64,000 bases of DNA from Anaerolineae bacterium (GTDB lineage: Bacteria; Chloroflexota; Anaerolineae; 4572-78; NAK82), in the NCBI GenBank assembly GCA_034436775.1, contig DAOTVI010000061.1, positions 125-64,124 on the forward strand. The letters run 5' to 3'. Within the stretch, counting starts at the first letter, position 1. Each line of letters begins with the position of its first letter. Made by a program: the position numbers and the translations under genes. The notes under the pieces were generated by a model. It ran no database searches, was not told the DNA's origin, and saw only the letters and a program-made list of their open reading frames with translations. Below are positions 1 to 13,663 of the stretch, piece by piece.

Positions 1-149
1 GTCTTGTCTGAAGGCGGATTTTTCGTTTCTTCCATCATTCTTCTGCTGCCCTGCGCACCGGCACTAAGGTCGCAGCGCCCTCCCTCTTCGATCGCGCGAG
101 GCGAAACACCTCGTGAAACGTTGGGAGCGGCAAGGTTCTAAGCGGATCA

Positions 150-1589
<1,440 letters not shown>

Positions 1590-1734: not shown

Positions 1735-2277
1735 TTAGTGCCAATGCAGCAGCTCGTCCTTCAGCTTGGGCATGCGCCCCTGTGCCAGCTCGGAAAGCAC
1801 GTAGTAAATGACATCGGCATCCGGCGGGCAACCGGGCACGGCCACGTCCACTTTCACCACCTCTTTGACCGCGCGCACGCGCGTCGGCCGGGCGATTTCA
1901 GGATCGCTGGGTATCTTGCCTTCGGCGTCTGTGCTTTCCGTTTCTACGTAGGCACGTTTGAGGGCATCTTCGATCTTGCCGAAGTTGCGCATCGCTACCA
2001 CGCCCCCGAAAACGGCGCAATCACCCAGCGCGACCAGGATCTTGCAACGTTCGCGCATGCGTTTAGCCACTTCCTCATTGGCCGTGTTGTTGACAGCACC
2101 TTCCAGAATCCCGATATCACACCCGTTCTCGTCCGGCTCCTTCAGATCCGTGATAGGGGTCGAACGTAAATCCACCAATTCCACCAGCTTAGCGATACGC
2201 TCGTCAATGTCGAGAAATGACATATGACATCCGGAACATCCGGCCAGCCAATCGGTTGCGACTTTTGGCTTCGGCAT
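1735..2277 (-). CDS. hoxY: [NiFe] hydrogenase small subunit (short, group 3 type)
   Basis: 180 aa. N-terminal WLAGCSGCHMSF proximal-cluster motif and C-terminal GCPP motif. AAGGAG lies upstream of the ATG. Position is immediately upstream of hoxH. Confidence 0.85.
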   Translation of the reverse strand: MPKPKVATDWLAGCSGCHMSFLDIDERIAKLVELVDLRSTPITDLKEPDENGCDIGILEGAVNNTANEEVAKRMRERCKILVALGDCAVFGGVVAMRNFGKIEDALKRAYVETESTDAEGKIPSDPEIARPTRVRAVKEVVKVDVAVPGCPPDADVIYYVLSELAQGRMPKLKDELLHWH

Positions 2278-2347: not shown

Positions 2348-4357
2348 TTATCGGCAAGCGTCCGGCTGGCCGATCCACACACGACTTTGCAGTGCCTCGC
2401 GCCAGTTCCCATCTAGAGCGATGCCCAACGCTTCCGCCAATGCCTGGAAGATGGCCAAATTGCTCCGCACATCGCGCGGTGGCGTCAACCCCTGACGCGC
2501 CTCTTGCAGACGCCCCTCAAGGTTCACGTAATGCCCTGCCTGCTCAGCCCAAATTGCGGCCGGCAGGACAACATCCGCACGGTCGGTCAAAGGAGAAGCG
2601 TAGCTGGCCTGCACCACCAGGAAGGGGACGCCCTCTACATGCTCAATGAGACGCGTGCTGGGGCGGTCGTCACCCAGTGCCAGGTAAGCCACTTGATGTC
2701 CCTTCAGGTCGAAGGCTTTGTCGAGCTCCAGCAGATAGGCAGCCGTGCTGTTCGCCTGACCCTTAGTGCCGATGACCGCGCTGCGCGTGTCATCCAGCGC
2801 GCCCGCCATGCGCGCCAGGTCGAGGAGCGCCTCCAAAGCGGTGGGGAAGCTGGCGCGCGTGAGCCCCTTGCCGTAGATGAACACCGGCCGCTCCGCCATA
2901 GCCAACAAACGTCCCACCTCGCGGATGGTCTCTGCCGGCACCCCGGTCATCCGACTGACGTTATCCGGCGTGTGTCTGGTCAGGTCGTGCGTGCCGATGG
3001 GGTGGGTGCGCACCATTCCCAAGCTGGCGATAACTTGCATGAGCCCGACGAGCAGATCATAATCGGTCTCCTTCTTGGGACGCAGCGAGAAATCGGCCAG
3101 AGCGTGCAAACCATTGTCATACGGATCAATGACCACCAGCTTGCAACCCTGTGGCAGGATGCGCTTCACAAAGAAGCCCGCCACCTGATGGTTCTCAACC
3201 AGATCCACCCCGATTGCCAAAACAAGATCCGCCTTATGAATCTCATCGAGCGTGCCCTCGAAGGGTTTGCCCAGTTTGCGCGCCACCCAACCGGGCAGCG
3301 CCGTCGTGACACCTTCCTCGATGCTGGTCACGATGCCGCTGTCCAGCTTGTCGGCAAAGAGCTGTTTGAAGCTGTACAGGGCTTCGACCGGCAGGCGCGT
3401 GGAAGCGAGTGCAGCGATGCCGCTGCCGTTGCGTCCTTTCATCGCCTGCAAACGAGAAGCCACCACGTGCAATGCCTCATCCCACGTAGCCGCCTTCAGC
3501 ACACCATTCCGGCGCACGAGCGGCGTGAGAATGCGCTCGCCCTGGTCGGTCAACGGCTCAAAGCGACCGATCTTGCACAGAACACCCTGATTCACCGGCG
3601 CGTCCCAGTCACCCTCAATGCGCAGCAGACGGTTATCGCGCACGATCATCTCGATGCCGCATCCGACGCTGCATCCCACGCAGGTTGACTTGATACGCGT
3701 CACGTCCTTAAGGCGACCCTGGTAGGCGCTCACACGGTCAATGATGGCGCCGGTGGGACACACCTGCAGACACGTGCCACACGAAATGCACGTGCTCTCG
3801 CCCAATGGCACATCCAGGTCGGCAATAATGCGGCTGCTGGCCCCGCGTTCCTGGACACCCAGCGTGAAATTGCCCACCAGCTCGCCACAGGCCCGCACGC
3901 AGCGACGACACATAATGCAACGGTTGTGATCCAGCACGATGAATTCGTGCGAGCCATCCACCGGATAAGGTTGCCAGTTGGGCTGGAGCGGCCATTCGGT
4001 CATCCCCTGTCCATATGCCGCGTTCTGCAGCTCACAATCCCCGCCGCTCACCGGACAGTACATGCAGAAATGATTGCGCTCGCTGAAGATCAGCGTCAGC
4101 ACGAAGGTGCGCGCTTCTTGCACTGCTGGGGTATTGGTGTATACAACCATGCCGTTCGCCGCGGGGAGGGTGCAGGAGGGCTGCAGTGTGCGTGCGCCCT
4201 CGACCTCCACCAGGCACATACGGCAACCGCCGTAGGGGAAGAGATGCTTGTGGTCACACAGGGTGGGAATATGAATACCTGCCTGCTGCGCAGCGCGCAA
4301 CACAGTGGTACCTTCAGGTACTTGAATTTCCTTACCATCGATTGTCAGCGTAATCAT
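2348..4357 (-). CDS. hoxU: NuoG-like iron-sulfur subunit in the HoxU position (2Fe-2S plus several 4Fe-4S sites plus a molybdopterin-oxidoreductase-like domain)
   Basis: ORF 2348..4375. N-terminal ITLTIDGKEIQVPEGTTVL...CDH...GGCRMC 2Fe-2S ferredoxin fold. Ferredoxin-type CxxCxxCxxxC motifs. CVGCSVGCG...C motif typical of the Mo-bisPGD family N-terminus. Start placed at ATG 4357, which has GGAGAGG 7 nt upstream. Confidence 0.8.
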   Translation of the reverse strand: MITLTIDGKEIQVPEGTTVLRAAQQAGIHIPTLCDHKHLFPYGGCRMCLVEVEGARTLQPSCTLPAANGMVVYTNTPAVQEARTFVLTLIFSERNHFCMYCPVSGGDCELQNAAYGQGMTEWPLQPNWQPYPVDGSHEFIVLDHNRCIMCRRCVRACGELVGNFTLGVQERGASSRIIADLDVPLGESTCISCGTCLQVCPTGAIIDRVSAYQGRLKDVTRIKSTCVGCSVGCGIEMIVRDNRLLRIEGDWDAPVNQGVLCKIGRFEPLTDQGERILTPLVRRNGVLKAATWDEALHVVASRLQAMKGRNGSGIAALASTRLPVEALYSFKQLFADKLDSGIVTSIEEGVTTALPGWVARKLGKPFEGTLDEIHKADLVLAIGVDLVENHQVAGFFVKRILPQGCKLVVIDPYDNGLHALADFSLRPKKETDYDLLVGLMQVIASLGMVRTHPIGTHDLTRHTPDNVSRMTGVPAETIREVGRLLAMAERPVFIYGKGLTRASFPTALEALLDLARMAGALDDTRSAVIGTKGQANSTAAYLLELDKAFDLKGHQVAYLALGDDRPSTRLIEHVEGVPFLVVQASYASPLTDRADVVLPAAIWAEQAGHYVNLEGRLQEARQGLTPPRDVRSNLAIFQALAEALGIALDGNWREALQSRVWIGQPDACR

Positions 4358-4406: not shown

Positions 4407-6056
4407 CTATGCCACCATTGCGCGGCGTCCGCTCATCGGACAGACGCCGGTGGGGCAAACACGTAATGAAATATGGGCTTCCACTTCCGCGCGGAAGTGT
4501 CTCATAATGTCTCGGATGGGCACCGCCGCTGTCTGGCCAAGACCGCAGTTGGAATAATTGGCCATGCCGTCTGCCAGCGCCAGAAGGTTTTTGAGATCGT
4601 CCATTTCTGCTGTGCCTTCGGCGATGGTGCTCAAAATTTGGTGGGCACGCTGTGTGCCGATGCGACATGGCGTGCATTTGCCACAGCTCTCCACCTTGAA
4701 GAAGTTGAGTAAAACCTTCGCCAGGTCAACGACACATGTATCTTCATCGCAGATCAGCAATGCCCCGGAGCCCAGAGAGACACCCGCACGTGTGAAAGAA
4801 TCGAAATCCATGGGGGTGTCTTGCAAGCTCGCCGGGATGATGGAGCCGCTGGAGCCACCCGTCTGGGCCAGCTTGAACGCAGCGCCATTTTTCATGCCCT
4901 TGCCGTAGATGGCGATCACCTCGCGCAGCGTAATGCCCATCGGCACCTCGATCAGGCCGGTGACGTTCACGGCACCCAGGATGGTGTACACTTTGGTGCC
5001 GGGGCTGTTCTTGGTGCCGAACTGGCGATACCAGGCGGCGCCGTTGCGGATGATGTGCGGCACGTTGGCCAGCGTCTCCACGTTATTGACCAGGGTGGGC
5101 TTGCCCCACAAGCCGTGCGTGGTGGGATACGGAGGACGCGAACGCGGCTCGCCGCGTTTGCCCTCGATCGATTCGATCAGCGCAGTTTCCTCGCCACAGA
5201 TGTAGGCGCCGGCCCCGGCGTGGATGTGGATGTTAAAGTCAAAATCGCTGCCGAAAATGCCACGTCCTAAAAAGCCCATCTGTCTGGCCTGATGGATCGC
5301 ACGCGACAGCCGTTCCAGCGCCAATCCATACTCGCCGCGCACATAGATATATCCCTCGTTGGCGCCAACGGCATAGCCGGCGATGGCCATCGCCTCGACA
5401 ATGCTATGTGGATCACCCTCCAGCACCAAGCGATCCTTGAAGGTACCTGGTTCGCTCTCATCCGCATTGCAAATCACGTATTTGCGATCGCCCTTAGCAC
5501 TGGCAACGAAACGCCACTTGGTGCCGGTAGGAAAGCCGGCGCCTCCCCGCCCGCGCAATCCCGAACGGCTGATCTCATCAATCACCTGAGCAGGTGTCAT
5601 CGTGGTGAGCGCCTTGCCCAGGGCTTCGTATCCGTCGTGCAGGATGTAGTCTTCGATGTCCTCAGGATCAATAAGGCCCACGCGGGAGAGCACAATGCGA
5701 TATTCGGCCGGAAGGGTGCCCTGACGTGCTGATAGCCAGGCAATCCTACCCGAGAGCTCCCGAACAGACGCTTGCAAACCTGCTGCAATACGCCCTTTGA
5801 GCAGGTGCTCTTCTACCAGGAAAGGCACGTCATCAGGGCGCACAGGACCGTAGACCACCGCCTCGGGATAGACAATCACCATCGGCAAAGCATCATGGCG
5901 GCCCACATCACCCACCATGGTGACCACCACTTCATCCTGAAGGCCGGTAGCACGGATCTCCTGCTGCAGGCGCTCAAACACCTGCCGCGCCCCGCGCTCC
6001 ATACTTTCGCGATCGCTGGAAACAAGCACCAAAGCGCGAGTCATTTGCATCGTCAT
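4407..6056 (-). CDS. hoxF: NAD(P)H-binding flavoprotein subunit of the hydrogenase diaphorase (NuoF family)
   Basis: ORF 4407..6158. GLRGRGGAGFPTGTKW FMN/NADH motif. ESCGKCTPCR 4Fe-4S (N3-type) motif. Start moved to ATG 6056 (GGAGAGG upstream), just after the hoxE stop at 6065. Confidence 0.85.
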   Translation of the reverse strand: MTMQMTRALVLVSSDRESMERGARQVFERLQQEIRATGLQDEVVVTMVGDVGRHDALPMVIVYPEAVVYGPVRPDDVPFLVEEHLLKGRIAAGLQASVRELSGRIAWLSARQGTLPAEYRIVLSRVGLIDPEDIEDYILHDGYEALGKALTTMTPAQVIDEISRSGLRGRGGAGFPTGTKWRFVASAKGDRKYVICNADESEPGTFKDRLVLEGDPHSIVEAMAIAGYAVGANEGYIYVRGEYGLALERLSRAIHQARQMGFLGRGIFGSDFDFNIHIHAGAGAYICGEETALIESIEGKRGEPRSRPPYPTTHGLWGKPTLVNNVETLANVPHIIRNGAAWYRQFGTKNSPGTKVYTILGAVNVTGLIEVPMGITLREVIAIYGKGMKNGAAFKLAQTGGSSGSIIPASLQDTPMDFDSFTRAGVSLGSGALLICDEDTCVVDLAKVLLNFFKVESCGKCTPCRIGTQRAHQILSTIAEGTAEMDDLKNLLALADGMANYSNCGLGQTAAVPIRDIMRHFRAEVEAHISLRVCPTGVCPMSGRRAMVA

Positions 6057-6064
6057 CCTCTCCC

Positions 6065-6547
6065 CTACGCATAACGCGCTAAGATTTGTGGCAGCTGTGC
6101 CCGGTCTACATTGCCATAAATGTCGTTGTCCACGATCACCACCGGTCCGACCGCGCACACGCCCAGGCAGCTGGTTGTCACCAGCGTCCAGCGCCCATCG
6201 GGGCTGGTTTCACCGGGTTGCAGGTGCAGCTCCTCCTGGAGCGCTTGCCACACCTCACGACCACCTACCACGTGACATGGGGCACTTTCACAGAACTGGA
6301 TGACATGGCGTCCGCGCGGCTTGGTTGAAAGCATCCGGTAAAAGCTGGCCACCGAGAACACTTGACTCTTCGGCACCCGCATCTGACGGCTGATCTCAGA
6401 AAGCGCCTCAGGCGACAGATAGCCCAATGCTTGGTTCACCTCGGACAAGACCGGGATCAGCCCTTCGCGCTCTCTGCCATGTCGGTTGATCGCCTGTTGC
6501 ACTATAGCATGCACTTCATCTACCTCTACCTGAGCGGCATTACTCAT
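6065..6547 (-). CDS. hoxE: NuoE-family thioredoxin-like [2Fe-2S] subunit of the hydrogenase diaphorase
   Basis: About 160 aa. FCESAPCH...SCLGVCAVGP four-cysteine NuoE pattern. GGGAGG lies 6 nt upstream of ATG 6547; ATG 6553 is an alternative. Confidence 0.85.
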   Translation of the reverse strand: MSNAAQVEVDEVHAIVQQAINRHGREREGLIPVLSEVNQALGYLSPEALSEISRQMRVPKSQVFSVASFYRMLSTKPRGRHVIQFCESAPCHVVGGREVWQALQEELHLQPGETSPDGRWTLVTTSCLGVCAVGPVVIVDNDIYGNVDRAQLPQILARYA

Positions 6548-6618: not shown

Positions 6619-9600
6619 TTATGCCGGCTGCGGCTGCAACTCCGCCTCAACCTCGGGGATCGGCAGCCCCACGCGCTGCATCCATTCCAGATCGCAGCGC
6701 AGGCAACGCTTTGCCTCCTCCTGGGCCATCATCTCATCCAGACCCAGCTCCACCTCGGCAAACCCACGACCGATGCGTCGTTCCGGAGGCAACACTCGCG
6801 GAGTCGGTCGGCGTGCATGGGCATAGTCCTCCACGTTGACGTAGCGCGGATAGTCATGCCGCTTGGGCTCGTACACCACCCGTTCCAACTTACCGGTGCG
6901 CAACCAGTTATCCACCGCCAGCGCCACCTTATTCCCCTGTGCGACGGCATGGATGACCGTCAGCGGGCCACTTACGGCATCGCCGGCAGCAAAGACCCCT
7001 TCGTACGAGGTCTCCATTGCCTTGCCCACCTTGATGGTGCTCAGACGATCTGTCTCAATGGCATCATCCTTCAGCCAATCGAAATCGGTGGTCTGGCCGA
7101 TGGCCGGGATCACCACATCGCAGGCGAGGTCGAACTCCGAGCCGACGATGGGGTGCACGATGCGCCGGCCAGTGTTGTCATACTCTGCCTGACGCTGACG
7201 CTGCACGCGCACACCCTCCACTCGGTCACGGCCCAGCACTGCCACCGGATTGACCAGGAAATGGAAGTGAATTCCTTCGTCCTTGGCCGCTTCGATTTCC
7301 TCGCGATGTGCCGGCATATCGCTTTCCTCGCGCCGATAGAGCACATGGACCTCCGCGGCGCCCAATCGCCACGCGGAACGCGCCGAGTCGATGGCAACAT
7401 CACCACCTCCGACGATGACCACGCGCTTCTGCTTCATATCGGGTGGGTTGCCACAGGCGATGTCGCGCAAGAATTGCACGCCCGGATACACGCCCGGCAG
7501 ATCGTCCCCAGGAATGCCCAGGCGGCGACTCTTGTGTGCCCCCAACGCCAGGATGATGGCAGCGTATCCTTGCTCCTTCAAGCTGCCGATGGTGAAGTCC
7601 TTACCCAGTTCCTGATTGCAGCGGATCTCGACCCCGGCGCGCTTGATGTGTTCGATCTCGGCAAACAGAGGTTCGCGCGGCAGCCGGTATGCCGGAATAC
7701 CATACGTCATCATCCCACCCGGCTGGGGCATCTTTTCGAACACGGTAACCTGATACCCTTGCTGTGCCAGGCGCAACGCCGCCGTCAAACCGGCCGGCCC
7801 TGCGCCGATAACGGCCACCTTCTGTTCCTTGGAGGGCGCCAAGCGCTCCGGCGTCCACGGCACCGCATATTCGTGATCGGCCATGAAGCGCTTGACCAGG
7901 CGGATGGCAATCGGCTCATCCAGCTTGCCGCGGCGACACTTGCGCTCGCAGAACGCCGGGCAAACGCGGCCGCAGATCAAGGCAAAGGGGTTGGCATCGC
8001 GGTGGACGGCCAGCCCTTCCGCATAACGTCCCTGACTGACCAGCGCCAGATATGCCGGGCTGTCCACCCCTGCGGGACAGGCATTGACGCACGGGGCGCG
8101 CACCAGATCCTGGCAAACACCCGCCGGACAATGGAGGTCGTAGATGTGTGCTTCATACTCGTGCAGGAAGTGTTTCAGCGTGCTCTCAACCGGATTCGGT
8201 GCACCCTGACCGAGGCCACACAAGCTGGTCGCCTTGATCTGGCGACACAGCATTCGGAGTGTCTCGATGTCGCTTTCCTGACCCTTGCCAGCGCAAATAC
8301 GCTGCAGGATTTCCAGGATGCGGCGCGTGCCGGCGCGGCAAGGGACGCACTTACCACAGCTCTCTTCCTGGGTGAATTCCATGAAAAAGCGGGCGATGTC
8401 CACCATGCAGGTGTCTTCGTTCATCACAATCATACCACCCGACCCCATGATGGAGCCCGCGGCAGCCAACGATTCGTAGTCCACCTCCATGTCAAGGTAC
8501 TCGGCCGGCAGACAACCGCCCATCGGGCCTCCGGTCTGCACCGCTTTGAAGCGCTTGCCGTCCTTGATCCCACCACCTACCTCGTAGATGACCTCGCGCA
8601 ACGTGATCCCCAGCGGCACTTCGATCAGGCCGGTGTTGCGGACATCGCCCGCAATGGCAAAAGTTTTGGTGCCCTTGCTGCGCTCGGTGCCCATGCTGGC
8701 AAACCATTCCGGCCCGCGCAGGATGATCTGGGGCACGTTGGCATAGGTTTCCACATTGTTGATGTTGGTGGGGCAATCCCATAGTCCCTTGACGGCCGGG
8801 AAGGGAGGGCGTGGACGCGGCTCGCCGCGCCTGCCCTCGATGGAAGCCATCAGCGCCGTCTCCTCGCCGCAGACGAACGCGCCGGCGCCCATGCGCACCT
8901 CAAGATCGAAGGAGAAGTCGCTGCCCAGGATGTTCTCGCCCAGGAAGCCAAACTCGCGTGCCTGCTGGATGGCGATGTTGAGCGTGCGCACCGCCACCGG
9001 ATACTCAGCGCGGCAGTAGATGTAACCCTGGCTCGCGCCGATGGCATAGGCCGCGATGATCATGCCTTCGATCACGGAGTGCGGATCGCCTTCCAGAACG
9101 CGCCGGTTCATAAAGGCGCCTGGATCGCCTTCATCTGCATTGCAGATCACATATTTGCGATCACCCGGCGCTTTGCGCGTGAACTCCCACTTCTTGGCGG
9201 TGGGGAAACCCGCACCGCCGCGCCCGCGCAACCCCGAGCGCGCAATTGCGTCAATCACCTGCTCCGGGGTCATCTCAGACAGCACCTTGCCCAAGGCCTG
9301 ATAACCGTCCTCAGCCAGGTAGTCCTCGATGTTTTCTGGGTCAATCACACCGCAGTTGCGCAACACCACACGCACTTCCTTCGGTTTGGGTGGTGCCAGC
9401 TCCTCATCCATCTGCTCACGCACCGGCGCCAGCAGACGGCCCACCACACGGCCCTTAAGGAAGTGTTCCTCCACCAGATGGGGTACATCATCAATGCGGA
9501 TACCGCAGTAGTGCACTGCCTCGGGATAGACCATCAGTTCCGGGCCATCGGTGCAGCGGCCCAGCCGCGGTGTCTGGAGGATGCGCACTTCTCCGCTCAA

Positions 9601-9708
9601 TCCCTGGCGTGCCAGTTCCTCAGAAAGCACCTCAATCAGCTCGCGTGCTCCCTTAGCCTGGCAGTCAGGGTCCATACACACCAATACGTGAGAACGATAG
9701 TATTTCAT
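6619..9708 (-). CDS. Fusion protein: thioredoxin-like domain + NuoF-like FMN/NADH module + 2x[4Fe-4S] + GltD/NfnB-like FAD/NADPH oxidoreductase
   Basis: 1029 aa. GLRGRGGAGFPTAKKW and ESCGKCVPCR (NuoF-type) motifs. These are followed by a Cys-rich CPAGVC...CVNACPAG...CGRVCP..C region and KVAVIGAGPAGLTAA plus VVIVGGGDVAID dinucleotide-binding folds typical of the glutamate synthase small subunit/NfnB family. Confidence 0.8.
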   Translation of the reverse strand: MKYYRSHVLVCMDPDCQAKGARELIEVLSEELARQGLSGEVRILQTPRLGRCTDGPELMVYPEAVHYCGIRIDDVPHLVEEHFLKGRVVGRLLAPVREQMDEELAPPKPKEVRVVLRNCGVIDPENIEDYLAEDGYQALGKVLSEMTPEQVIDAIARSGLRGRGGAGFPTAKKWEFTRKAPGDRKYVICNADEGDPGAFMNRRVLEGDPHSVIEGMIIAAYAIGASQGYIYCRAEYPVAVRTLNIAIQQAREFGFLGENILGSDFSFDLEVRMGAGAFVCGEETALMASIEGRRGEPRPRPPFPAVKGLWDCPTNINNVETYANVPQIILRGPEWFASMGTERSKGTKTFAIAGDVRNTGLIEVPLGITLREVIYEVGGGIKDGKRFKAVQTGGPMGGCLPAEYLDMEVDYESLAAAGSIMGSGGMIVMNEDTCMVDIARFFMEFTQEESCGKCVPCRAGTRRILEILQRICAGKGQESDIETLRMLCRQIKATSLCGLGQGAPNPVESTLKHFLHEYEAHIYDLHCPAGVCQDLVRAPCVNACPAGVDSPAYLALVSQGRYAEGLAVHRDANPFALICGRVCPAFCERKCRRGKLDEPIAIRLVKRFMADHEYAVPWTPERLAPSKEQKVAVIGAGPAGLTAALRLAQQGYQVTVFEKMPQPGGMMTYGIPAYRLPREPLFAEIEHIKRAGVEIRCNQELGKDFTIGSLKEQGYAAIILALGAHKSRRLGIPGDDLPGVYPGVQFLRDIACGNPPDMKQKRVVIVGGGDVAIDSARSAWRLGAAEVHVLYRREESDMPAHREEIEAAKDEGIHFHFLVNPVAVLGRDRVEGVRVQRQRQAEYDNTGRRIVHPIVGSEFDLACDVVIPAIGQTTDFDWLKDDAIETDRLSTIKVGKAMETSYEGVFAAGDAVSGPLTVIHAVAQGNKVALAVDNWLRTGKLERVVYEPKRHDYPRYVNVEDYAHARRPTPRVLPPERRIGRGFAEVELGLDEMMAQEEAKRCLRCDLEWMQRVGLPIPEVEAELQPQPA

Positions 9709-9741
9709 AGACCCTGTCTCAACCTCGCTATGTTGACACCA

Positions 9742-10110
9742 TTACGACGGGATGACGTACTCCTCGACCACGTGCGAATTCACCACATGCTCCTTCATAA
9801 TGCGGCGCGCCTTTTCTGGGTCCACCTTGCCATAGGTGACCTTGGGACCACCGCCCACAGTGACTTCTACGATGGGCTCCCATTCGCACAGACCGATGCA
9901 GCCCGTTTGTGTCACCACGACACCGCTTAGATTCTCCTTCTCGATGAACTCCAGAATTGCTTTCATCGTATCACGTGCGCCGGCGGCGATGCCGCAGGTG
10001 CCCATGCCCACTACAACCTGCGCATGCCCCGCAACTGTGCGTGCCTGCCGCTTTTCCAGCGCCTCTTCCCTCAGGCGCTTGAGCTCTTCCAGGGACTTGA
10101 TCTGTGGCAT
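9742..10110 (-). CDS. Small thioredoxin-like [2Fe-2S] ferredoxin
   Basis: 122 aa. GMGTCGIAAG...TGCIGLCEWEP pattern as in the ferredoxin-like genes of HydABC-type clusters. AGGAGG lies 8 nt upstream of the ATG. Confidence 0.7.
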   Translation of the reverse strand: MPQIKSLEELKRLREEALEKRQARTVAGHAQVVVGMGTCGIAAGARDTMKAILEFIEKENLSGVVVTQTGCIGLCEWEPIVEVTVGGGPKVTYGKVDPEKARRIMKEHVVNSHVVEEYVIPS

Positions 10111-10176
10111 TGTTGTTTCCTCCTATCCACGTTCTTTCCAGAGTTACATTAACTATACATTTGGAGCGATTCAGGG

Positions 10177-10728
10177 TTATCCTATATTCTGTTGCACGCG
10201 CGCAATTCCCTCGTGCAACAGCTGTTTCACAAAGCTGAGAATGATGGGTTCGGTGAGAGGGACACCATCGAGTTCCTTGAGGATGGGCTCGCTGTCGAAG
10301 CAAAACTCACGACCGTCCACAACGTGGCGGAACACCCAGCGCACCTGTGGAAAGGCGACCAGCAGGGTGAGCAACGTTCCCGCCAGGTCGCCGAGCGGCA
10401 TGCGGTCGATGTGACTGCGTTGGAACCGGGCTTCCAGACGGGTGCCCTTGCCTAGGGTCGATTCGATGCGCAGATAGCCATTACATGCCTCAGCGGCTGC
10501 TTTGAGCAGGGGAATGCCCAGCCCTACCTTGCGCGTCGTGCGCGTGGTGACAAATGGATCAGACACACGTTCCAGCAAGTCCTGATCCATTCCCTTGCCA
10601 TTGTCTTGCACCACGATGGTGAGTGTATCATCAGAGCTATCCTCACACACCGTAATGTCCACGCGTGTCGCGCCTGCGGCTACGCTGTTCTCGACGATGT
10701 CCAGCACGTGCAGCGCAATTTCCTTCAC
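10177..10728 (-). CDS. Stand-alone histidine-kinase-type ATPase domain protein (HATPase_c)
   Basis: 183 aa. HVLDIVENS (N-box-like), DNGKGM (G1) and GLGIPL (G2) motifs. No sensor or DHp domain. GTG start. Confidence 0.7.
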   Translation of the reverse strand: MKEIALHVLDIVENSVAAGATRVDITVCEDSSDDTLTIVVQDNGKGMDQDLLERVSDPFVTTRTTRKVGLGIPLLKAAAEACNGYLRIESTLGKGTRLEARFQRSHIDRMPLGDLAGTLLTLLVAFPQVRWVFRHVVDGREFCFDSEPILKELDGVPLTEPIILSFVKQLLHEGIARVQQNIG

Positions 10729-10797
10729 ACGACTATGCCCAACCCTTCACAACATCAACTAGACGTTCCTCACAAACCTTCTCCATCTGCTCAAAGA

Positions 10798-11313
10798 TCA
10801 CTTCTTGCTCTTACGATACTTGTTCAAAATGGCCGGCAACGTGTTGGGCTGTACACGTCCGTAGATGTCCCGATCCACCGTCACCGCGGGCGCCTGACTG
10901 CATGCACCGATGCAGCGGCACACCTCCAATGTAATCTGCCCGTCCGACGTCGTCTGTCCCACTTCGATGCCCAATTCCTCTTGTGCCTTACTGATCAAAG
11001 CGGGCGCACCACCAACATAACACGCTGTCCCCATGCAGAACTTGACAGTATGGCGACCACGCGGGGTGGTGGTGAAGAACGAATAGAACGAGACCACACC
11101 CCGCACGTGGGTCAACGGGATGCGCAACTTCTGGGCGACATAGGCCTGCATCGGGTTCGAGATATACCCGATCTGACTTTGTAACTCGTTGAGCACCACC
11201 ATGACCGCACCAGGCACATGGCGGTTCTCTTCTAGGATCTGGTCGATGAGCGCTCGTTGCTCGGGGACTGCAAGCGGATCATCAGCTGGAATGTTCTGAA
11301 ACGCGTTTGCCAT
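10798..11313 (-). CDS. NuoE/HydC-like thioredoxin-like [2Fe-2S] protein
   Basis: ORF 10798..11349. FCMGTACY...CIGACSQAP four-cysteine NuoE pattern. Start placed at ATG 11313, which has GGAGG 6 nt upstream. Confidence 0.85.
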   Translation of the reverse strand: MANAFQNIPADDPLAVPEQRALIDQILEENRHVPGAVMVVLNELQSQIGYISNPMQAYVAQKLRIPLTHVRGVVSFYSFFTTTPRGRHTVKFCMGTACYVGGAPALISKAQEELGIEVGQTTSDGQITLEVCRCIGACSQAPAVTVDRDIYGRVQPNTLPAILNKYRKSKK

Positions 11314-11349
11314 TACGGCCTCCGTTGTCGGCAAGAGTATCTGCAGCAC

Positions 11350-11367
11350 CTGTGAATTTTATCACGT
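11350..11367. promoter_or_regulatory. Imperfect Rex/CRP-type palindrome upstream of the NuoE-like gene
   Basis: CTGTGAATTTTATCACGT has a TGTGA-N6-TCAC core and lies 37 nt upstream of ATG 11313, in the 105-nt gap after the PHP gene. Confidence 0.3.
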
Positions 11368-11418
11368 TCTCTCTATAAGTCAAATAAGAGATCATACCAG
11401 TAAGACACCAGCCCTCTT

Positions 11419-12231
11419 TTACAGACTTTCCGGCTCGGATACAGGAGGGGCAAGGGTGGAGATATCATCCCCAGCTTCACTCCTGTCAACTCTCCGCAGC
11501 AAAACGGCAGAGCGTCCAGCACGATTCGCCAACGCCAGGCGCAACTCCGCCGTCGTGGGGGCCTCCAGGGTCAGGACCATGGGACCGGTTATCTCATCGA
11601 GTCGATGTGCATCGCCACTTTGTATGAGCGGGATATCGCCAATCTGTGGGAATCGCTGCCTGGCCTGTGTGGGCGTGATGTGTCGGGTGATCTCCAGCGC
11701 AGCAAAGGGAATACCCTCAGGCACAAATCCCAGGTTGGTGATCAAGCTGAACGCTTTGCGGTCAATATGGGCCGGGATCGCCAATCCACCCAGCGCGTTA
11801 ACGCGTACGGCAGCCTCTTCCAGCGTCATGCGTGTGGAAGCAAGCAGCAACCGTGTCTCGCGCCGGACGAACTCACCCACCTCATCTACTACAAACTGCT
11901 CGCCAAACAATTCTGCGTTGTTCTCCAAGTCAGGCAGGTGTGCATCCACCTGCCGCTGCCAATCCGCCAATTGCTCTAAGGTATCAAACAAGCACAGCAT
12001 GTGAACCTCTTCCCGGGTTTGCACTTCCATGCCGGGCAACACGCTCAGCGCACTGCCCTGTGCTGCGCGCATCACGGCCTCCACGTTGGCACTGGCGTTG
12101 TGGTCGGTGATCGCCAGCAGGTTGATTCCGCGTTCCAGCGCGGTGCGCACAATGAGCGGCGGGATCATTTCCACCGCGGCACAGGGCGAGAGCACCGTGT
12201 GCACGTGCAGCTCAGCCACATAGACTTGCAA
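11419..12231 (-). CDS. PHP-domain metal-dependent phosphoesterase
   Basis: 270 aa. N-terminal ELHVHTVLSPCA and ITDHN motifs characteristic of the PHP fold. Confidence 0.75.
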   Translation of the reverse strand: MQVYVAELHVHTVLSPCAAVEMIPPLIVRTALERGINLLAITDHNASANVEAVMRAAQGSALSVLPGMEVQTREEVHMLCLFDTLEQLADWQRQVDAHLPDLENNAELFGEQFVVDEVGEFVRRETRLLLASTRMTLEEAAVRVNALGGLAIPAHIDRKAFSLITNLGFVPEGIPFAALEITRHITPTQARQRFPQIGDIPLIQSGDAHRLDEITGPMVLTLEAPTTAELRLALANRAGRSAVLLRRVDRSEAGDDISTLAPPVSEPESL

Positions 12232-12232
12232 T

Positions 12233-12577
12233 TTAGCGATCGCGCACCCCCATCTCCCACAACTTACCCACCACCCAGAAGGTGGTTTTGTCGGTCAGAA
12301 ACAGGTTCACGCCTTCCTCGTCCGCCTTCTCGATCGTCTCCTGATCGGGGCGCGCGTTCTCGGTGATGATCACAGCGCTAAGCTCGAGCAGTGCGGCCAC
12401 CGCTACAATGTTGCTGTGCGATTGCAGGGTGACCCATATCCCGTGATGACGTGCACCCGCCATCACACAGCTCAAAAGATCTGAAGCATAGCCGCTTCGG
12501 ATCTCCACAGCGCTGAAATCACGCGGTTTGGTCAGGCATGTCAGGTTCAATTGAGCGACAATTTCCTGCAACGTCAT
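12233..12577 (-). CDS. DRTGG-domain protein
   Basis: 114 aa. Size and sequence pattern match the small DRTGG proteins found in hydrogenase regulatory clusters. ATGA start/stop overlap with the upstream CBS-kinase gene. Confidence 0.6.
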   Translation of the reverse strand: MTLQEIVAQLNLTCLTKPRDFSAVEIRSGYASDLLSCVMAGARHHGIWVTLQSHSNIVAVAALLELSAVIITENARPDQETIEKADEEGVNLFLTDKTTFWVVGKLWEMGVRDR

Positions 12578-13617
12578 CGGCTTTCCTGTCCTTCCTCCTT
12601 GCGGTCCTGTAGCGACCCCTTCGGCGAATGCAGATAGATGCGCACTGTCAAATGGGTGCCTTTGCCTGGGGTCGATTCGAGCTGCATGCTATCCGCGCAG
12701 CGTTCGATGTTTTTCAACCCCATGCCGGCGCCGAAGCCCATCTCCCGCACCTCTTCCGGCGCCGTGGAATAACCGGGTGTCATCGCCAGCTGAATATCCG
12801 GGATGCCAGGGCCATCATCAAACGTTTCGATCAAGATGTCGGTCGGCTCAATGCCCACCCGGATGACACCACCGTTGGTAGTGTGGATGATCAAGTTCAT
12901 CTCCGCTTCATACGCCGCAATGCCGCAGCGGCGCGCGACCTGAGGTGAAGCACCCAGACGTAATAACGCGCGCTTGATATGGTGCGACGCCTGCCCACCG
13001 TGGGCGAAGTCACGCGGCTTGATGTAATAACGCAACACCAAGCTGGTGCGGTCCGAGATGATGTCCTCAAACAAGTGGCTGGCGCGATAACGCTTGAGTT
13101 CTTCGAGCTGGATCTCGCGCTGGAGTGCCTTTAGCACCCCACGCGTGATGTCCCCTTTGGTGATGATGCCCACCAGCTGTCCACTCTCATCCAAAACAGG
13201 CAGACGCCCCACACGGGTCTGGGCGAAAGTTTTCAAAGCCTCGATCACCGGGCTCTGTGCCTGTACGGTGATGACTTTGTTTGTCATGTAGTGCTTGAGC
13301 GGGACATCCAGATCACCTCGGACGAGCGCACGGATGAGATCCTCAATGCTGATGATGCCCACCAGCGCACCCCGATCCACCACCGGTGCTCCCGAAATGC
13401 GGGTCTGGCGAAAGAGCTCCAGCACAGTACGCATTGGCACCTCAGGCGTTACCACCTTGGGATCGCGCGTCATCGAGTCGGCAATCTTGAGCTCGTAGAA
13501 GAGCTCCTCGACGCGGGTGATCTGCCCGATGGTCTCGTCGGTGATGCCACGCTCGACCTGCAGACGCGCGTCACCACGTCTTTCTTCTCTCAGTCCCTCA
13601 TCATTACTCTTTGCCAT
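12574..13617 (-). CDS. CBS-pair protein fused to an anti-sigma-factor-type Ser/Thr kinase ATPase domain (HATPase_c_2)
   Basis: 347 aa. Two CBS repeats (PVVDRGALVGIISIEDL and PVLDESGQLVGIITKGDI). C-terminal DDGPGI...GFGAGMGLKN...GKGTHL ATP-binding motifs of the RsbW/SpoIIAB type. Confidence 0.75.
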   Translation of the reverse strand: MAKSNDEGLREERRGDARLQVERGITDETIGQITRVEELFYELKIADSMTRDPKVVTPEVPMRTVLELFRQTRISGAPVVDRGALVGIISIEDLIRALVRGDLDVPLKHYMTNKVITVQAQSPVIEALKTFAQTRVGRLPVLDESGQLVGIITKGDITRGVLKALQREIQLEELKRYRASHLFEDIISDRTSLVLRYYIKPRDFAHGGQASHHIKRALLRLGASPQVARRCGIAAYEAEMNLIIHTTNGGVIRVGIEPTDILIETFDDGPGIPDIQLAMTPGYSTAPEEVREMGFGAGMGLKNIERCADSMQLESTPGKGTHLTVRIYLHSPKGSLQDRKEEGQESR

Positions 13618-13645
13618 TAGTTTATCCCATATACGGCCGGCAAGG

Positions 13646-13663
13646 TTGTGACAAATGTCACAA
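13646..13663. promoter_or_regulatory. Perfect 18-bp palindrome, candidate Rex (or CRP/FNR-family) operator
   Basis: TTGTGACAAATGTCACAA lies 28 nt upstream of the ATG of the CBS-kinase gene. It matches TTGTGAAnnnnTTCACAA at 12 of 14 specified positions and contains the TGTGA-N6-TCACA core. Confidence 0.45.

What the first reader, a model, noticed from the sequence alone, without database searches (positions are those of the whole stretch)
6619..13663. An [FeFe]-hydrogenase-style accessory and sensor gene set, with no [FeFe] hydrogenase, sits directly upstream of a [NiFe] Hox operon
On the minus strand the gene order is: CBS-pair/RsbW-type kinase, DRTGG protein, PHP phosphoesterase, a gap, NuoE-like protein, stand-alone HK-type ATPase, thioredoxin-like ferredoxin, NuoF-like protein, then hoxEFUYH. 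To my knowledge the NuoE / HK-ATPase / ferredoxin / NuoF order is the hallmark of HydABC-type electron-bifurcating [FeFe] hydrogenase operons in Thermotogae and Firmicutes. The kinase/DRTGG/PHP set usually accompanies the sensory HydS-type hydrogenase there. In this window neither HydA nor HydS is encoded. The position normally held by HydA is occupied by a GltD-like NADPH module fused to NuoF, followed by a full [NiFe] group 3 enzyme that already has its own HoxE/HoxF diaphorase. The locus therefore carries two complete NADH-flavoprotein modules and a putative phospho-signalling set. This suggests an undescribed redox-sensing and electron-routing assembly (H2 / NADH / NADPH / ferredoxin) built around a [NiFe] rather than an [FeFe] catalytic subunit.
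Basis: partly seen in the sequence, partly recalled or inferred. Interest (0 to 1): 0.8.

Follow-up and report, generated by a model that had tools for sequence, protein, structure and literature searches.

The report
NiFe hydrogenase operon with NADPH-module flavoprotein
This is one conserved operon for a [NiFe] hydrogenase of the NuoEF-based 'Bfu' family in which the flavoprotein has swapped its ferredoxin-docking domain for an NADPH-binding GltD module, a widespread but apparently undescribed variant that probably links H2 directly to both NAD and NADP.

Summary
The labels need correcting. The downstream genes are not a Hox (group 3d) operon. All five subunits of the Acetomicrobium mobile bifurcating NiFe-HydABCSL enzyme (PDB 7T2R) are the best solved-structure matches here. 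"HoxU" is a 669-aa HydA-like protein. That operon is already known to carry hisK and hydD, so the NuoE/HK/Fd/NuoF order is not specific to [FeFe] enzymes.

What looks new is the 1029-aa NuoF::GltD protein. It is a HydB (BfuB) whose C-terminal ferredoxin-like 2x[4Fe-4S] domain, the published ferredoxin site, is replaced at the same junction by a GltD module (two [4Fe-4S], FAD, NADPH).

The fusion occurs in 79 sequence clusters from more than 12 phyla:
- 44 sit beside [FeFe] HydA.
- 7 sit beside NiFe sets. In four of these lineages it is the only flavoprotein.
- At least 9 sit beside FdhA-like genes.

The second pair, NuoE2/HydB2, belongs to a distinct short clade of the non-bifurcating type. 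The kinase has a CBS pair exactly where relatives carry a HydS sensor gene.

Best reading: a ferredoxin-independent enzyme linking H2 to NAD(H) and NADP(H). The chemistry is inferred, not shown.

The parts
12574..13617 (-). CBS-pair fused to a GHKL (RsbW/SpoIIAB-like) ATPase/kinase domain, 347 aa
   Evidence: Pfam CBS x2 (7.5e-31), HATPase_c and HATPase_c_2. The CBS part matches solved CBS proteins. CBS-fused kinases never have an adjacent HydS-like gene (0/11 loci). Short kinases without CBS have one in 21/24 loci.
12233..12577 (-). DRTGG-domain protein, 114 aa; overlaps the kinase gene by 4 nt
   Evidence: Pfam DRTGG 8e-6 and Hpr_kinase_N 4e-5. Conserved next to the kinase in L003, L004, L027, L096/97 and the Firmicutes loci.
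11419..12231 (-). PHP-family phosphoesterase, 270 aa
   Evidence: Pfam PHP 1.5e-7. Weak NCBIfam and PDB matches to nucleotide phosphatases and RNase AM. dN/dS 0.10.
11356..11383 (-). Promoter-like site (TTGACT-16-TAAAAT, TG extended) in the 105-nt PHP-NuoE1 gap, followed by GGAGG before the ATG at 11313
   Evidence: This is only a consensus match. The overall hit count is not above shuffles.
10798..11313 (-). HydC1/BfuC (NuoE-like, [2Fe-2S] C1 cluster), 171 aa. The ORF could start at 11349, but ATG 11313 has a Shine-Dalgarno sequence.
   Evidence: Pfam 2Fe-2S_thioredx 1.2e-46. Best PDB matches are HydC of bifurcating hydrogenases.
10177..10728 (-). HisK-like stand-alone GHKL ATPase, 183 aa, with no DHp/His phosphoacceptor domain
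   Evidence: Pfam HATPase_c only, residues 8-103. PDB matches cover only the ATP-binding domains of histidine kinases. hisK is in the A. mobile NiFe-Bfu operon but not in the holoenzyme (PMC9304861).
9742..10110 (-). HydD-like thioredoxin-fold [2Fe-2S] ferredoxin, 122 aa, with three Cys
   Evidence: Pfam 2Fe-2S_thioredx 4e-4 and NCBIfam 2Fe-2S ferredoxin 5e-10. hydD is named in the A. mobile operon.
8098..9708 (-). HydB1/BfuB part of the fusion (aa 1-537): N-terminal thioredoxin-like domain, FMN and NAD(H) site (ADEGDPG), B1 [4Fe-4S], His/Cys 'B2' site
   Evidence: 800 bits to 7T2R_B over residues 1-537. Motifs shown.
6619..8097 (-). GltD/NfnB-like part of the fusion (aa 538-1029): two [4Fe-4S] Cys motifs, FAD GxGxxG, NADPH GxGxxA plus YRR, C-terminal RCLRC. 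It replaces the BfuB ferredoxin-like B3/B4 domain.
   Evidence: Pfam Fer4_20 and Pyr_redox_2. PDB matches to NfnA 9N5U_A, StnC 8OH5_C and 9BOV_A. Junction alignment. Invariant residues.
6065..6547 (-). HydC2/BfuC paralogue (NuoE-like), 160 aa
   Evidence: Pfam 1.1e-45. Best PDB match is 7T2R_C. 36% identical to HydC1.
4407..6056 (-). HydB2, a short NuoF-like flavoprotein of 549 aa. It has FMN, an NADH site and B1, but lacks the N-terminal [2Fe-2S] cysteines and the C-terminal ferredoxin-like domain.
   Evidence: 611 bits to 7T2R_B. 53% identical to the fusion. Alignment. Falls in a monophyletic 'short' clade. dN/dS 0.024.
2348..4357 (-).
   Evidence: Pfam Fer2_4, NADH-G_4Fe-4S_3, Fer4, Molybdop_Fe4S4 and Molybdopterin; no Molydop_binding. 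Best PDB match 7T2R_A at 9e-97, full length.
1735..2277 (-). [NiFe] hydrogenase small subunit HydS, 180 aa
   Evidence: Pfam Oxidored_q6. Best PDB match 7T2R_E at 6e-53, full length.
150..1580 (-). [NiFe] hydrogenase large subunit HydL, 476 aa, with [11 protein letters not shown] and DPCLSCSTH motifs and a 26-aa C-terminal extension
   Evidence: 7T2R_D 574 bits, against SH HoxH 5XF9_D 418 and MvhA 403. Sequence.
1..38 (-). First codons of a 172-aa gene for a maturation-endopeptidase-like protein; the rest lies outside the window
   Evidence: L081:19674-20192 carries GFGNPDRQDDGVAW. No Pfam hit. The function is inferred from the motif only.

Best explanation
The region and the 'hox' genes together form one modular operon for a Bfu-family (HydABCSL-type) cytoplasmic [NiFe] hydrogenase.

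Proposed electron path:
- H2 is split or formed at HydL.
- Electrons pass through HydS and the Fe-S chain of the HydA-like protein to the B1 cluster and FMN of a NuoF-type flavoprotein, where NAD(H) binds.
- In canonical Bfu enzymes the low-potential branch runs from the NuoE cluster C1 to the B3/B4 ferredoxin-like domain of HydB, and then to ferredoxin.
- Here that domain is replaced, at the same junction, by a GltD module (two [4Fe-4S], FAD, NADPH site).
- NADP(H) is therefore predicted to take the place of ferredoxin. The net reaction would be 2 H2 + NAD+ + NADP+ <-> NADH + NADPH + 2 H+, independent of ferredoxin.

The second pair, NuoE2 plus short HydB2, is a NADH-only module of the non-bifurcating type. 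It shares the same HydA/HydS/HydL, either as an alternative isoenzyme or as part of a larger complex.

CBS-kinase, DRTGG and PHP form a regulatory set. In it the CBS pair, a sensor of adenine-nucleotide type, stands where relatives have a HydS H2 sensor. HisK-like and HydD are operon-associated accessories, as in A. mobile.

Shown: gene content, homology, domain replacement, co-conservation and purifying selection.
Inferred: electron path, substrates, stoichiometry, complex composition and the signalling logic.
For: 1. All five 7T2R chains are the best solved-structure matches: A, B, C, D and E.
2. The fusion aligns to HydB over residues 1-537. It keeps the FMN and NAD motifs, B1 and the His/Cys B2 site. 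It then continues directly into GltD cysteine motifs where canonical HydB proteins have CxxCxxCxxxCP twice. The FAD motif, the GxGxxA NADPH motif and YRR are invariant in 12 diverse homologues.
3. Published structures place the ferredoxin site at the B3/B4 domain, with the low-potential path C1 to B3/B4 to Fd (PMC12018979).
4. In L001, L004, L090 and L043 the fusion plus one NuoE is the only flavoprotein module next to HydA/HydS/HydL. It must therefore be able to serve the NiFe module.
5. The fusion sits next to a BfuA-type catalytic partner in at least 60 of 65 resolvable clusters: [FeFe] HydA 44, NiFe 7, FdhA-like at least 9.
6. Near-orthologous BfuB proteins carry either the ferredoxin-like domain or GltD. 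The window-lineage third BfuB is 78% identical over 570 aa to the second fusion of L004, which holds the same syntenic position. L087 against L089 gives 74%. The two C-terminal modules are therefore interchangeable.
7. The short HydB2 clade is monophyletic and recurs between the fusion and HydA in both FeFe and NiFe contexts. Its dN/dS is 0.024.
8. Kinase dichotomy: CBS-fused kinases have an adjacent HydS-like gene in 0 of 11 loci, short kinases in 21 of 24.
9. Physiological potentials NAD -280 mV, NADPH -380 mV and H2 -414 mV (PMC9304861 Table 1) make NADPH a plausible low-potential partner at low H2.
Against: - There are no biochemical data for any NuoF::GltD protein, and none was found in the searched literature.
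- Both NAD+ and NADP+ are more positive than H2 at 1 bar. Energy coupling is therefore not required, and the enzyme may simply be a dual-cofactor hydrogenase.
- Ferredoxin might still dock on the GltD clusters, as it does on NfnL in NfnSL. The stand-alone HydD might also act as an adaptor.
- In this window a complete NuoE2/HydB2 pair lies between the fusion and HydA. The fusion is therefore not necessarily part of the hydrogenase complex in this organism.
- Two clusters (L103, L157) show the fusion with no adjacent BfuA gene.
- The window fusion has only 3 of the 4 N-terminal [2Fe-2S] cysteines.
- Transcription units are untested. A promoter-like site lies between PHP and NuoE1.
- The NJ tree does not resolve whether the fusion arose once.
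Confidence: 0.55

Rival explanations
1. Two independent enzymes lie side by side. (i) NuoE1 plus NuoF::GltD would be a ferredoxin-independent NADH:NADP+ transhydrogenase or NAD(P)H oxidoreductase. (ii) NuoE2/HydB2/HydA/HydS/HydL would be a plain, non-bifurcating NAD+-linked [NiFe] hydrogenase that works like the soluble hydrogenase or the S. wolfei-type enzyme. They would be clustered only for co-regulation.
For: - The window lineage has a complete second flavoprotein pair directly upstream of hydA.
- Short HydB lacks B3-B5, like characterised non-bifurcating homologues (PMC9304861).
- In L010 and L013 the short HydB2 and the fusion each have their own [FeFe] HydA.
- L103 and L157 have the fusion without an adjacent BfuA.
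Against: - In L001, L004, L090 and L043 the NiFe module has no flavoprotein other than the fusion.
- The fusion almost always abuts a BfuA-type catalytic gene.
- The order fusion/NuoE2/HydB2/single HydA recurs in seven clusters with either FeFe or NiFe partners. This argues for functional linkage.
- The gaps are short (31-70 nt) and no terminator-like site falls between the genes.
Confidence: 0.2
2. The enzyme is still ferredoxin-dependent. The GltD domain would add NADP(H) as a fourth substrate (hydrogenase plus Nfn in one complex). Ferredoxin would dock on the GltD [4Fe-4S] clusters as in NfnSL, or electrons would be relayed by the HydD ferredoxin. Alternatively, the GltD FAD itself could be a second bifurcation site.
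For: - GltD/NfnB-type FAD is the bifurcating flavin of NfnSL, and its two [4Fe-4S] clusters lead to ferredoxin (PMC12018979; PMC5861303).
- A HydD ferredoxin gene is present here and in a minority of fusion loci.
- The fusion retains the His/Cys 'B2' ligands typical of bifurcating BfuB.
Against: - In the fusion the GltD clusters are the covalent continuation of BfuB and are probably buried at the interface.
- HydD is absent from most fusion operons. The commonest form is only NuoE, fusion and HydA.
- HydD is not part of the A. mobile holoenzyme.
Confidence: 0.15
3. One reading: an [FeFe]-hydrogenase accessory and sensor set was grafted in front of a conventional Hox (group 3d) hydrogenase, creating a wholly new redox-sensing assembly.
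For: - The kinase/DRTGG/PHP set is typical of HydS-containing [FeFe] loci in Firmicutes.
- A precomputed Pfam HoxH hit exists for the large subunit.
Against: - The subunit set and best structural homologues are NiFe-HydABCSL, not Hox. 'HoxU' is 669 aa, and HydL scores 574 bits against 7T2R_D versus 418 against HoxH.
- The A. mobile NiFe-Bfu operon already carries hisK and hydD.
- The regulatory set also accompanies FDH-linked fusions (L003, L018). It is therefore associated with Bfu operons in general, not with [FeFe] enzymes specifically.
Confidence: 0.05

Closest known systems
Acetomicrobium mobile electron-bifurcating NiFe-HydABCSL (NiFe-Bfu; PDB 7T2R/7T30)
   Same: The five subunit types HydA (H-cluster-less, NuoG-like), HydB, HydC, HydS and HydL are each the best PDB match. 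hisK and hydD genes are in the operon. It is a cytoplasmic group 3-type NiFe module.
   Different: Here the closest HydB homologue has lost the ferredoxin-like B3/B4 domain and carries a GltD FAD/NADPH module instead. A second, truncated HydB/HydC pair is inserted. A CBS-kinase/DRTGG/PHP set lies upstream. The host is Chloroflexota (Anaerolineae), not Synergistota.
Nfn-Bfu / StnABC transhydrogenases (Sporomusa ovata 8OH5; Caldicellulosiruptor 9N5U; Thermococcus sibiricus)
   Same: They combine a NuoE/NuoF (BfuCB) core with a GltD/NfnL-like FAD/NADPH domain of the same subfamily. The GltD part of the fusion matches StnC and NfnA at about residues 100-567.
   Different: In Stn/Nfn-Bfu the GltD domain sits at the N-terminus of BfuA and feeds the mid-potential path, and BfuB keeps its B3/B4 ferredoxin site. 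Here GltD is fused to the C-terminus of BfuB in place of that site, and a hydrogenase (or FDH) module is also present.
NfnSL/NfnAB transhydrogenase
   Same: The GltD-type subunit has two [4Fe-4S] clusters, FAD and an NADPH site.
   Different: There is no NfnS/NfnA subunit. The partner flavin is the FMN of a NuoF homologue within the same polypeptide.
Non-bifurcating NADH-dependent hydrogenases (Syntrophomonas wolfei Hyd1ABC; Syntrophus aciditrophicus HydAB)
   Same: HydB2 here lacks the extra Fe-S domains, as their beta subunits do.
   Different: Those are [FeFe] enzymes. HydB2 here still keeps the His/Cys 'B2' ligands and co-occurs with the GltD fusion.
NAD-reducing soluble [NiFe] hydrogenase / bidirectional Hox (group 3d; PDB 5XF9)
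   Same: A cytoplasmic NiFe dimer coupled to NuoE/F-type diaphorase.
   Different: HoxU is about 240 aa, whereas the Fe-S subunit here is 669 aa with a molybdopterin-fold domain. HoxH is a clearly weaker match than A. mobile HydL.
HydS-linked kinase/phosphatase sets of Firmicutes (hfs operon, Ruminococcus albus HydS model)
   Same: A GHKL kinase-like protein, DRTGG protein(s) and a PHP protein lie upstream of hydC-hisK-hydD-hydB.
   Different: There is no HydS gene here. The kinase instead carries an N-terminal CBS pair.

Membership tests
Bfu family (BfuABC; Schut et al. 2022) | BfuB with FMN/NAD(H) site and B1 [4Fe-4S] | tested here: met
   GRGGAGFPT, ADEGDPG and ESCGKCxPCR are conserved in the fusion and in HydB2.
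Bfu family (BfuABC; Schut et al. 2022) | BfuB 'B2' site ligands (His plus Cys; His absent from non-bifurcating homologues) | tested here: met
   H521, C527, C532 and C434 are invariant in the fusion alignment. AHI...CPxGVC is present in the fusion and in the window HydB2. Criterion taken from PMC9304861.
Bfu family (BfuABC; Schut et al. 2022) | BfuB C-terminal ferredoxin-like domain with B3/B4 [4Fe-4S] (ferredoxin site); 'absolutely conserved BfuBC core' | tested here: not met
   It is absent from the fusion (replaced by GltD) and from HydB2 (truncated). It is present in the third BfuB outside the window and in Firmicutes HydB.
Bfu family (BfuABC; Schut et al. 2022) | BfuB N-terminal [2Fe-2S] (four Cys) | tested here: inconclusive
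   The window fusion has 3 of 4 Cys, whereas relatives have 4. HydB2 has none. StnB also lacks two of them and is active (PMC7483475).
Bfu family (BfuABC; Schut et al. 2022) | BfuC with C1 [2Fe-2S], and BfuA with an N-terminal Fe-S chain | tested here: met
   Pfam 2Fe-2S_thioredx for both NuoE proteins. Fer2_4, NADH-G_4Fe-4S_3 and Fer4 in HydA'.
Bfu family (BfuABC; Schut et al. 2022) | Tightly coupled electron bifurcation with ferredoxin and NAD(H) | not testable with these tools
   This needs enzyme assays.
NiFe-HydABCSL (NiFe-Bfu) | Five subunit types A, B, C, S and L, with HydA lacking an H-cluster | tested here: met
   Best PDB matches are 7T2R_A to 7T2R_E. There is no Fe_hyd_lg_C domain in the window.
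Hox / group 3d NAD-coupled [NiFe] hydrogenase | HoxU of about 240 aa, and HoxH-type large subunit as the closest relative | tested here: not met
   The Fe-S subunit is 669 aa and matches HoxU only over residues 7-228. HydL scores 574 bits to 7T2R_D against 418 to SH HoxH. HydDB itself could not be run.
Nfn-Bfu / Stn transhydrogenase | GltD-like NADPH domain located in BfuA, with BfuB keeping the ferredoxin domain | tested here: not met
   GltD is C-terminal in BfuB, and HydA' has no Pyr_redox domain.
GltD/NfnB-type Fe-S flavoprotein domain | Two [4Fe-4S] Cys motifs, FAD GxGxxG, and NADPH GxGxxA plus Arg pair | tested here: met
   C540/C544, C579/C583/C587/C591, G635-x-G637-xx-G640, G767-G769/A772 and Y791-R792-R793 are invariant. 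Fer4_20 6.7e-22 and Pyr_redox_2 8e-40. Cofactor binding itself is not tested.
Two-component sensor histidine kinase (for the 183-aa 'HK') | DHp/HisKA domain with the phospho-accepting His | tested here: not met
   Only HATPase_c (residues 8-103) is detected. No HisKA hit.
HydS-linked regulatory set | Adjacent HydS-type (group C) [FeFe] sensory hydrogenase gene | tested here: not met
   No HydS-like sequence is in the window. 0 of 11 CBS-fused kinase loci have one, against 21 of 24 short-kinase loci.

The most novel reading that the evidence does not exclude
NuoF::GltD (BfuB::GltD) proteins may define a widespread, ferredoxin-independent class of Bfu enzymes. These would bifurcate or confurcate electrons between the NAD(H) and NADP(H) pools, with H2 (via FeFe or NiFe modules) or formate as the third substrate. 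NADPH, not ferredoxin, would be the low-potential partner. The fusion joins two flavoprotein types that are each the bifurcating subunit of their own family. In this Anaerolineae lineage such an enzyme would additionally be combined with a NADH-only flavoprotein pair. Its control would rest on a CBS-domain (energy or nucleotide) sensor instead of an H2 sensor.
Probability: 0.25. Interest if true: 0.85.

Novelty: new variant of a known kind. Interest (0 to 1): 0.62.

Why it matters
The Bfu family is currently defined by an 'absolutely conserved' BfuBC core that reduces ferredoxin. A large natural group in which the ferredoxin domain is exchanged for an NADPH module gives a direct test of where and how the low-potential branch works.

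The group spans 79 clusters and more than 12 phyla, including termite-gut and human-gut metagenomes.

If NADPH replaces ferredoxin, these organisms could make H2 from NADH plus NADPH. By my Nernst estimate the tolerable H2 level would rise from about 3 Pa to about 150 Pa. Alternatively they could make NADPH directly from H2 or formate. Either would change how H2 budgets and hydrogenase classes (for example HydDB A3) are interpreted.

The proteins are currently annotated only as 'NuoF' or 'FAD-dependent oxidoreductase'.

Tried and rejected
- The look-up of encoding contigs with the 485-aa HydL ORF found nothing because the called start differs. The fusion protein P0001 worked instead.
- Promoter and terminator scan: hit counts are no higher than in shuffles, so transcription units remain open.
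- Rfam: only two unrelated tRNAs.
- NJ tree of 182 BfuB N-domains: internal branches are too short to decide whether the fusion arose once or several times. Only the short HydB2 clade is clearly separate.
- Six of the full-text searches (one search was for the HydS/DRTGG/PHP set and for the hfs literature) looked for a description of a NuoF/HydB-GltD fusion and found none. Searches read the candidate papers those searches returned. The nearest hint is the HydDB rule 'A2 if GltD but not NuoF'. The library covers open-access papers only, so absence is not proof.
- The automatic partner tally misfiled L037 and L080 (FdhA-like) and the second L004 fusion. These were corrected by hand.
- Structure prediction was not run. 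The tools return no coordinates, so cluster-to-cluster distances could not have been measured.
- Considered and rejected: that the 1029-aa ORF is an assembly or frameshift artefact. It is a single ORF in 125 independently assembled loci.

Full report
**1. What is in the sequence**

Thirteen consecutive minus-strand genes run from 13617 down to position 1 of the window. Domain scans give the following:
- a protein with two CBS domains and a GHKL ATPase domain (12574-13617);
- a DRTGG protein (12233-12577);
- a PHP phosphoesterase (11419-12231);
- a NuoE-like protein (10798-11313);
- a 183-aa protein consisting only of a HATPase_c domain (10177-10728);
- a thioredoxin-like [2Fe-2S] ferredoxin (9742-10110);
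- a 1029-aa protein with a complete NuoF architecture followed by Fer4_20 and Pyr_redox_2, that is, GltD (6619-9708);
- a second NuoE (6065-6547);
- a second NuoF (4407-6056);
- a 669-aa NuoG-like Fe-S protein (2348-4357);
- a [NiFe] small subunit (1735-2277) and large subunit (150-1580).

The large subunit has intact [11 protein letters not shown] and DPCLSCSTH motifs and a C-terminal extension. The thirteenth gene, the maturation-endopeptidase-like ORF described in section 4, has only its first codons inside the window. Intergenic gaps are 1-154 nt.

No [FeFe] H-cluster or HydS-like sequence occurs anywhere in the window.

**2. The 'hox' genes are a NiFe-HydABCSL (NiFe-Bfu) set**

- large subunit: 574 bits, against 418 for the soluble-hydrogenase HoxH and 403 for MvhA;
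- small subunit: 6e-53;
- the 669-aa 'HoxU': full-length match to HydA at 9e-97;
- NuoE2: best match HydC;
- both NuoF-like proteins: best match HydB.

The paper that defines the Bfu family states that the A. mobile operon also holds hisK and hydD, which are not part of the holoenzyme (PMC9304861). The NuoE/HK/Fd/NuoF order is therefore already documented for a [NiFe] enzyme. It is not an [FeFe] hallmark.

**3. The unusual element is the fusion protein**

Its first 537 residues are the closest HydB homologue in the locus: 800 bits to 7T2R_B, against 611 for the second NuoF. The two paralogues are 53% identical.

An alignment with canonical HydB proteins shows the following.
- After the conserved AHI..xCPxGVC segment, canonical proteins continue with two CxxCxxCxxxC(P) motifs. 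This is the ferredoxin-like B3/B4 domain.
- The fusion continues instead with the GltD cysteine motifs (APCxxACP...ICGRVCPxxCExxCRRG), an FAD GxGxxG, an NADPH-type GxGxxA with YRR, and a C-terminal RCLRC. All of these are invariant in 12 diverse homologues.
- The GltD part matches the NADPH-binding domains of NfnA (9N5U_A) and StnC (8OH5_C).

Cryo-EM work places the low-potential path of Bfu enzymes as C1 to B3/B4 to ferredoxin, with ferredoxin docking at the BfuB ferredoxin-like domain (PMC12018979). The fusion has exchanged exactly that domain for an NADP(H) module.

The second NuoF (HydB2) lacks both the N-terminal [2Fe-2S] cysteines and the C-terminal domain. Characterised non-bifurcating homologues share that state (PMC9304861).

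**4. Beyond the window**

A near-identical 204-kb contig (L081) shows what follows HydL:
- a 172-aa ORF with a GFGNPDRQDDGVAW motif typical of hydrogenase maturation endopeptidases;
- a third NuoE;
- a canonical 635-aa BfuB with the Fer4 domain;
- a 950-aa FdhA-like protein.

The locus is in fact a row of three NuoEF-based modules.

**5. Comparative census**

Scans of one-genome-per-species contigs and of metagenome contigs gave 164 loci. ORF-level annotation found 125 fusion ORFs in 79 clusters at 90% identity. They come from Anaerolineae, Dehalococcoidia, Desulfobacterales, Verrucomicrobiota, Spirochaetes, Bacteroidales, Firmicutes, Planctomycetota, Acidobacteria and others, and from termite-gut and human-gut metagenomes.

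The adjacent catalytic gene is:
- a true [FeFe] HydA in 44 clusters (Fe_hyd_lg_C and Fe_hyd_SSU confirmed for L005 and L027);
- a NiFe HydA/S/L set in 7 clusters;
- an FdhA/NuoG-like gene in at least 9 clusters (L003 looks selenocysteine-interrupted);
- nothing identifiable in about 5 clusters (for example L103 and L157).

The remaining 14 clusters sit on contigs too short to judge.

In L001, L004, L090 and L043 the fusion plus one NuoE directly precedes HydA/HydS/HydL, with no other flavoprotein. The arrangement seen in the window, fusion/NuoE2/short HydB2/single HydA, recurs in seven clusters. Five of these carry an [FeFe] HydA (L027, L092, L095-L099) and two carry NiFe. L027 and L096/97 also carry the CBS-kinase, DRTGG, PHP, HK and Fd genes upstream.

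The short HydB2 proteins form one clade.

All 12 genes have dN/dS of 0.013-0.10 against L087. Synonymous sites are saturated, so the ratios are approximate but clearly far below 1.

**6. Domain interchange**

The window lineage's third BfuB is of the ferredoxin-domain type and lies next to FdhA. It is 78% identical over 570 residues to the second fusion of L004, which occupies the same syntenic position but carries GltD. L087's third BfuB is 74% identical to the L089 fusion. Closely related BfuB proteins therefore differ mainly in which C-terminal module they carry. This supports functional equivalence of position.

**7. The regulatory set**

In Firmicutes loci the order is DRTGG, short kinase (about 145 aa), a 440-470-aa gene, DRTGG, PHP, then hydC-hisK-hydD-hydB-hydA. 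The 440-470-aa protein has Fe_hyd_lg_C plus PF04060 and degenerate H-cluster motifs, so it is HydS-type.

Of 24 short kinases, 21 have such a neighbour. None of the 11 CBS-fused kinases, from about six independent lineages, has one. The CBS pair therefore appears to take the sensor position of HydS.

The proposal that HydS signals through an adjacent Ser/Thr kinase and phosphatase is itself only a hypothesis in the literature (PMC5707799).

The set also accompanies FDH-linked fusions (L003, L018). It belongs to Bfu operons in general.

The 'HK' has no phospho-accepting domain and should not be called a histidine kinase.

What the PHP protein hydrolyses is unknown. Candidates are a phosphoprotein or a nucleotide ligand. 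Its only sequence relatives with known function are nucleotide phosphatases and RNase AM.

**8. Mechanism proposed**

Shown: a NiFe-Bfu-type hydrogenase module. It has a flavoprotein with FMN and an NAD-type ADEGDPG loop (motif meaning from PMC9304861's companion analysis in PMC9431212). A GltD FAD/NADPH module sits where ferredoxin normally docks.

Inferred: electrons from H2 reach B1/FMN through HydS and HydA. NAD+ is reduced at FMN. The branch that normally goes to ferredoxin ends at FAD/NADP+.

The published physiological potentials are NAD -280 mV, NADPH -380 mV and H2 -414 mV at 1 bar. With these values, running the reaction in reverse (NADH + NADPH to 2 H2) would be feasible up to roughly 150 Pa H2, against about 3 Pa for NADH alone. 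This is my own Nernst calculation.

HydB2/NuoE2 would provide a NADH-only entry.

Alternatives are two separate enzymes, or retained ferredoxin dependence through the GltD clusters or HydD. They are listed as rivals.

**9. Novelty**

NiFe-Bfu, Nfn-Bfu and non-bifurcating short HydB are all known. A BfuB::GltD fusion lacking the ferredoxin domain was not found in six targeted full-text searches and the candidate papers read from them. The Bfu classification describes the BfuBC core as invariant and places the NADPH domain in BfuA. The HydDB rule 'A2 if GltD but not NuoF' suggests such proteins were seen but filed as ordinary NuoF.

No curated NCBIfam model reaches its cut-off over the full length. 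Source names are 'NuoF' or 'FAD-dependent oxidoreductase'.

I rate this a new variant of a known kind. The window itself is one of the rarer NiFe-linked, double-flavoprotein forms.

Noticed in passing
L081:20189-23090 (just beyond window position 1, same strand as the operon): A third NuoE (170 aa), a canonical BfuB (635 aa, with a C-terminal 2x[4Fe-4S] domain) and a 950-aa FdhA-like gene follow the hydrogenase. Three NuoEF-based modules therefore lie in a row.
   Followed up: partly
L081:20698-22605 vs L004:13307-16480; L087:20698-22545 vs L089:4204-7311: BfuB proteins that are 74-78% identical over about 550-570 aa carry either a ferredoxin-like C-terminal domain or a GltD module. This implies recent domain exchange at one junction.
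   Followed up: partly
window 1-38 / L081:19674-20192: A 172-aa ORF after HydL has the GxGNxxxxDDGxG motif of hydrogenase maturation endopeptidases but no Pfam hit at E<0.1. It is a divergent protease candidate.
   Followed up: partly
L100-L164 (e.g. L104, L112, L148-L155): The three-gene operon NuoE, NuoF::GltD, [FeFe] HydA is very common in termite-gut, bioreactor and human-gut metagenome contigs. It is by far the commonest context of the fusion.
   Followed up: partly
L003:13096-15885: The FdhA-like gene after the fusion is split by a single in-frame stop between 14217 and 14233. This is probably a selenocysteine codon. The same split pattern occurs in L018, L057, L069 and L071.
   Followed up: no
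window 6619-6720 (fusion residues ~995-1029): The conserved motif EEAKRCLRCD lies at the C-terminus of the GltD part. It resembles the RCLxC motif that begins canonical GltD (compared from memory of E. coli GltD). This suggests a permuted cluster ligand arrangement shared with StnC-type proteins.
   Followed up: no
L028:3805-16213: A Balneolales contig carries the fusion between two different NiFe sets. It includes an apparent HydS::HydA fusion ORF (494 aa) and a second HydB/HydA/HydS/HydL set.
   Followed up: no
window 9742-10110 and L081:20698-20900: The HydD ferredoxin and the N-terminal domain of the third BfuB both have only three cysteines (GMGTCG...GCxGxC), where BfuB N-domains usually have four.
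   Followed up: no
window 37184-38659, 56256-57755, 60370-63987, 19910-22090: Unrelated neighbours were seen: an MttB-family methyltransferase homologue, a LarA-type (nickel-pincer) lactate racemase homologue, a 1205-aa DUF11-repeat protein, and RelA/SpoT. No hyp or hydEFG maturation genes were found among the ten large ORFs of the rest of the window that were scanned.
   Followed up: no
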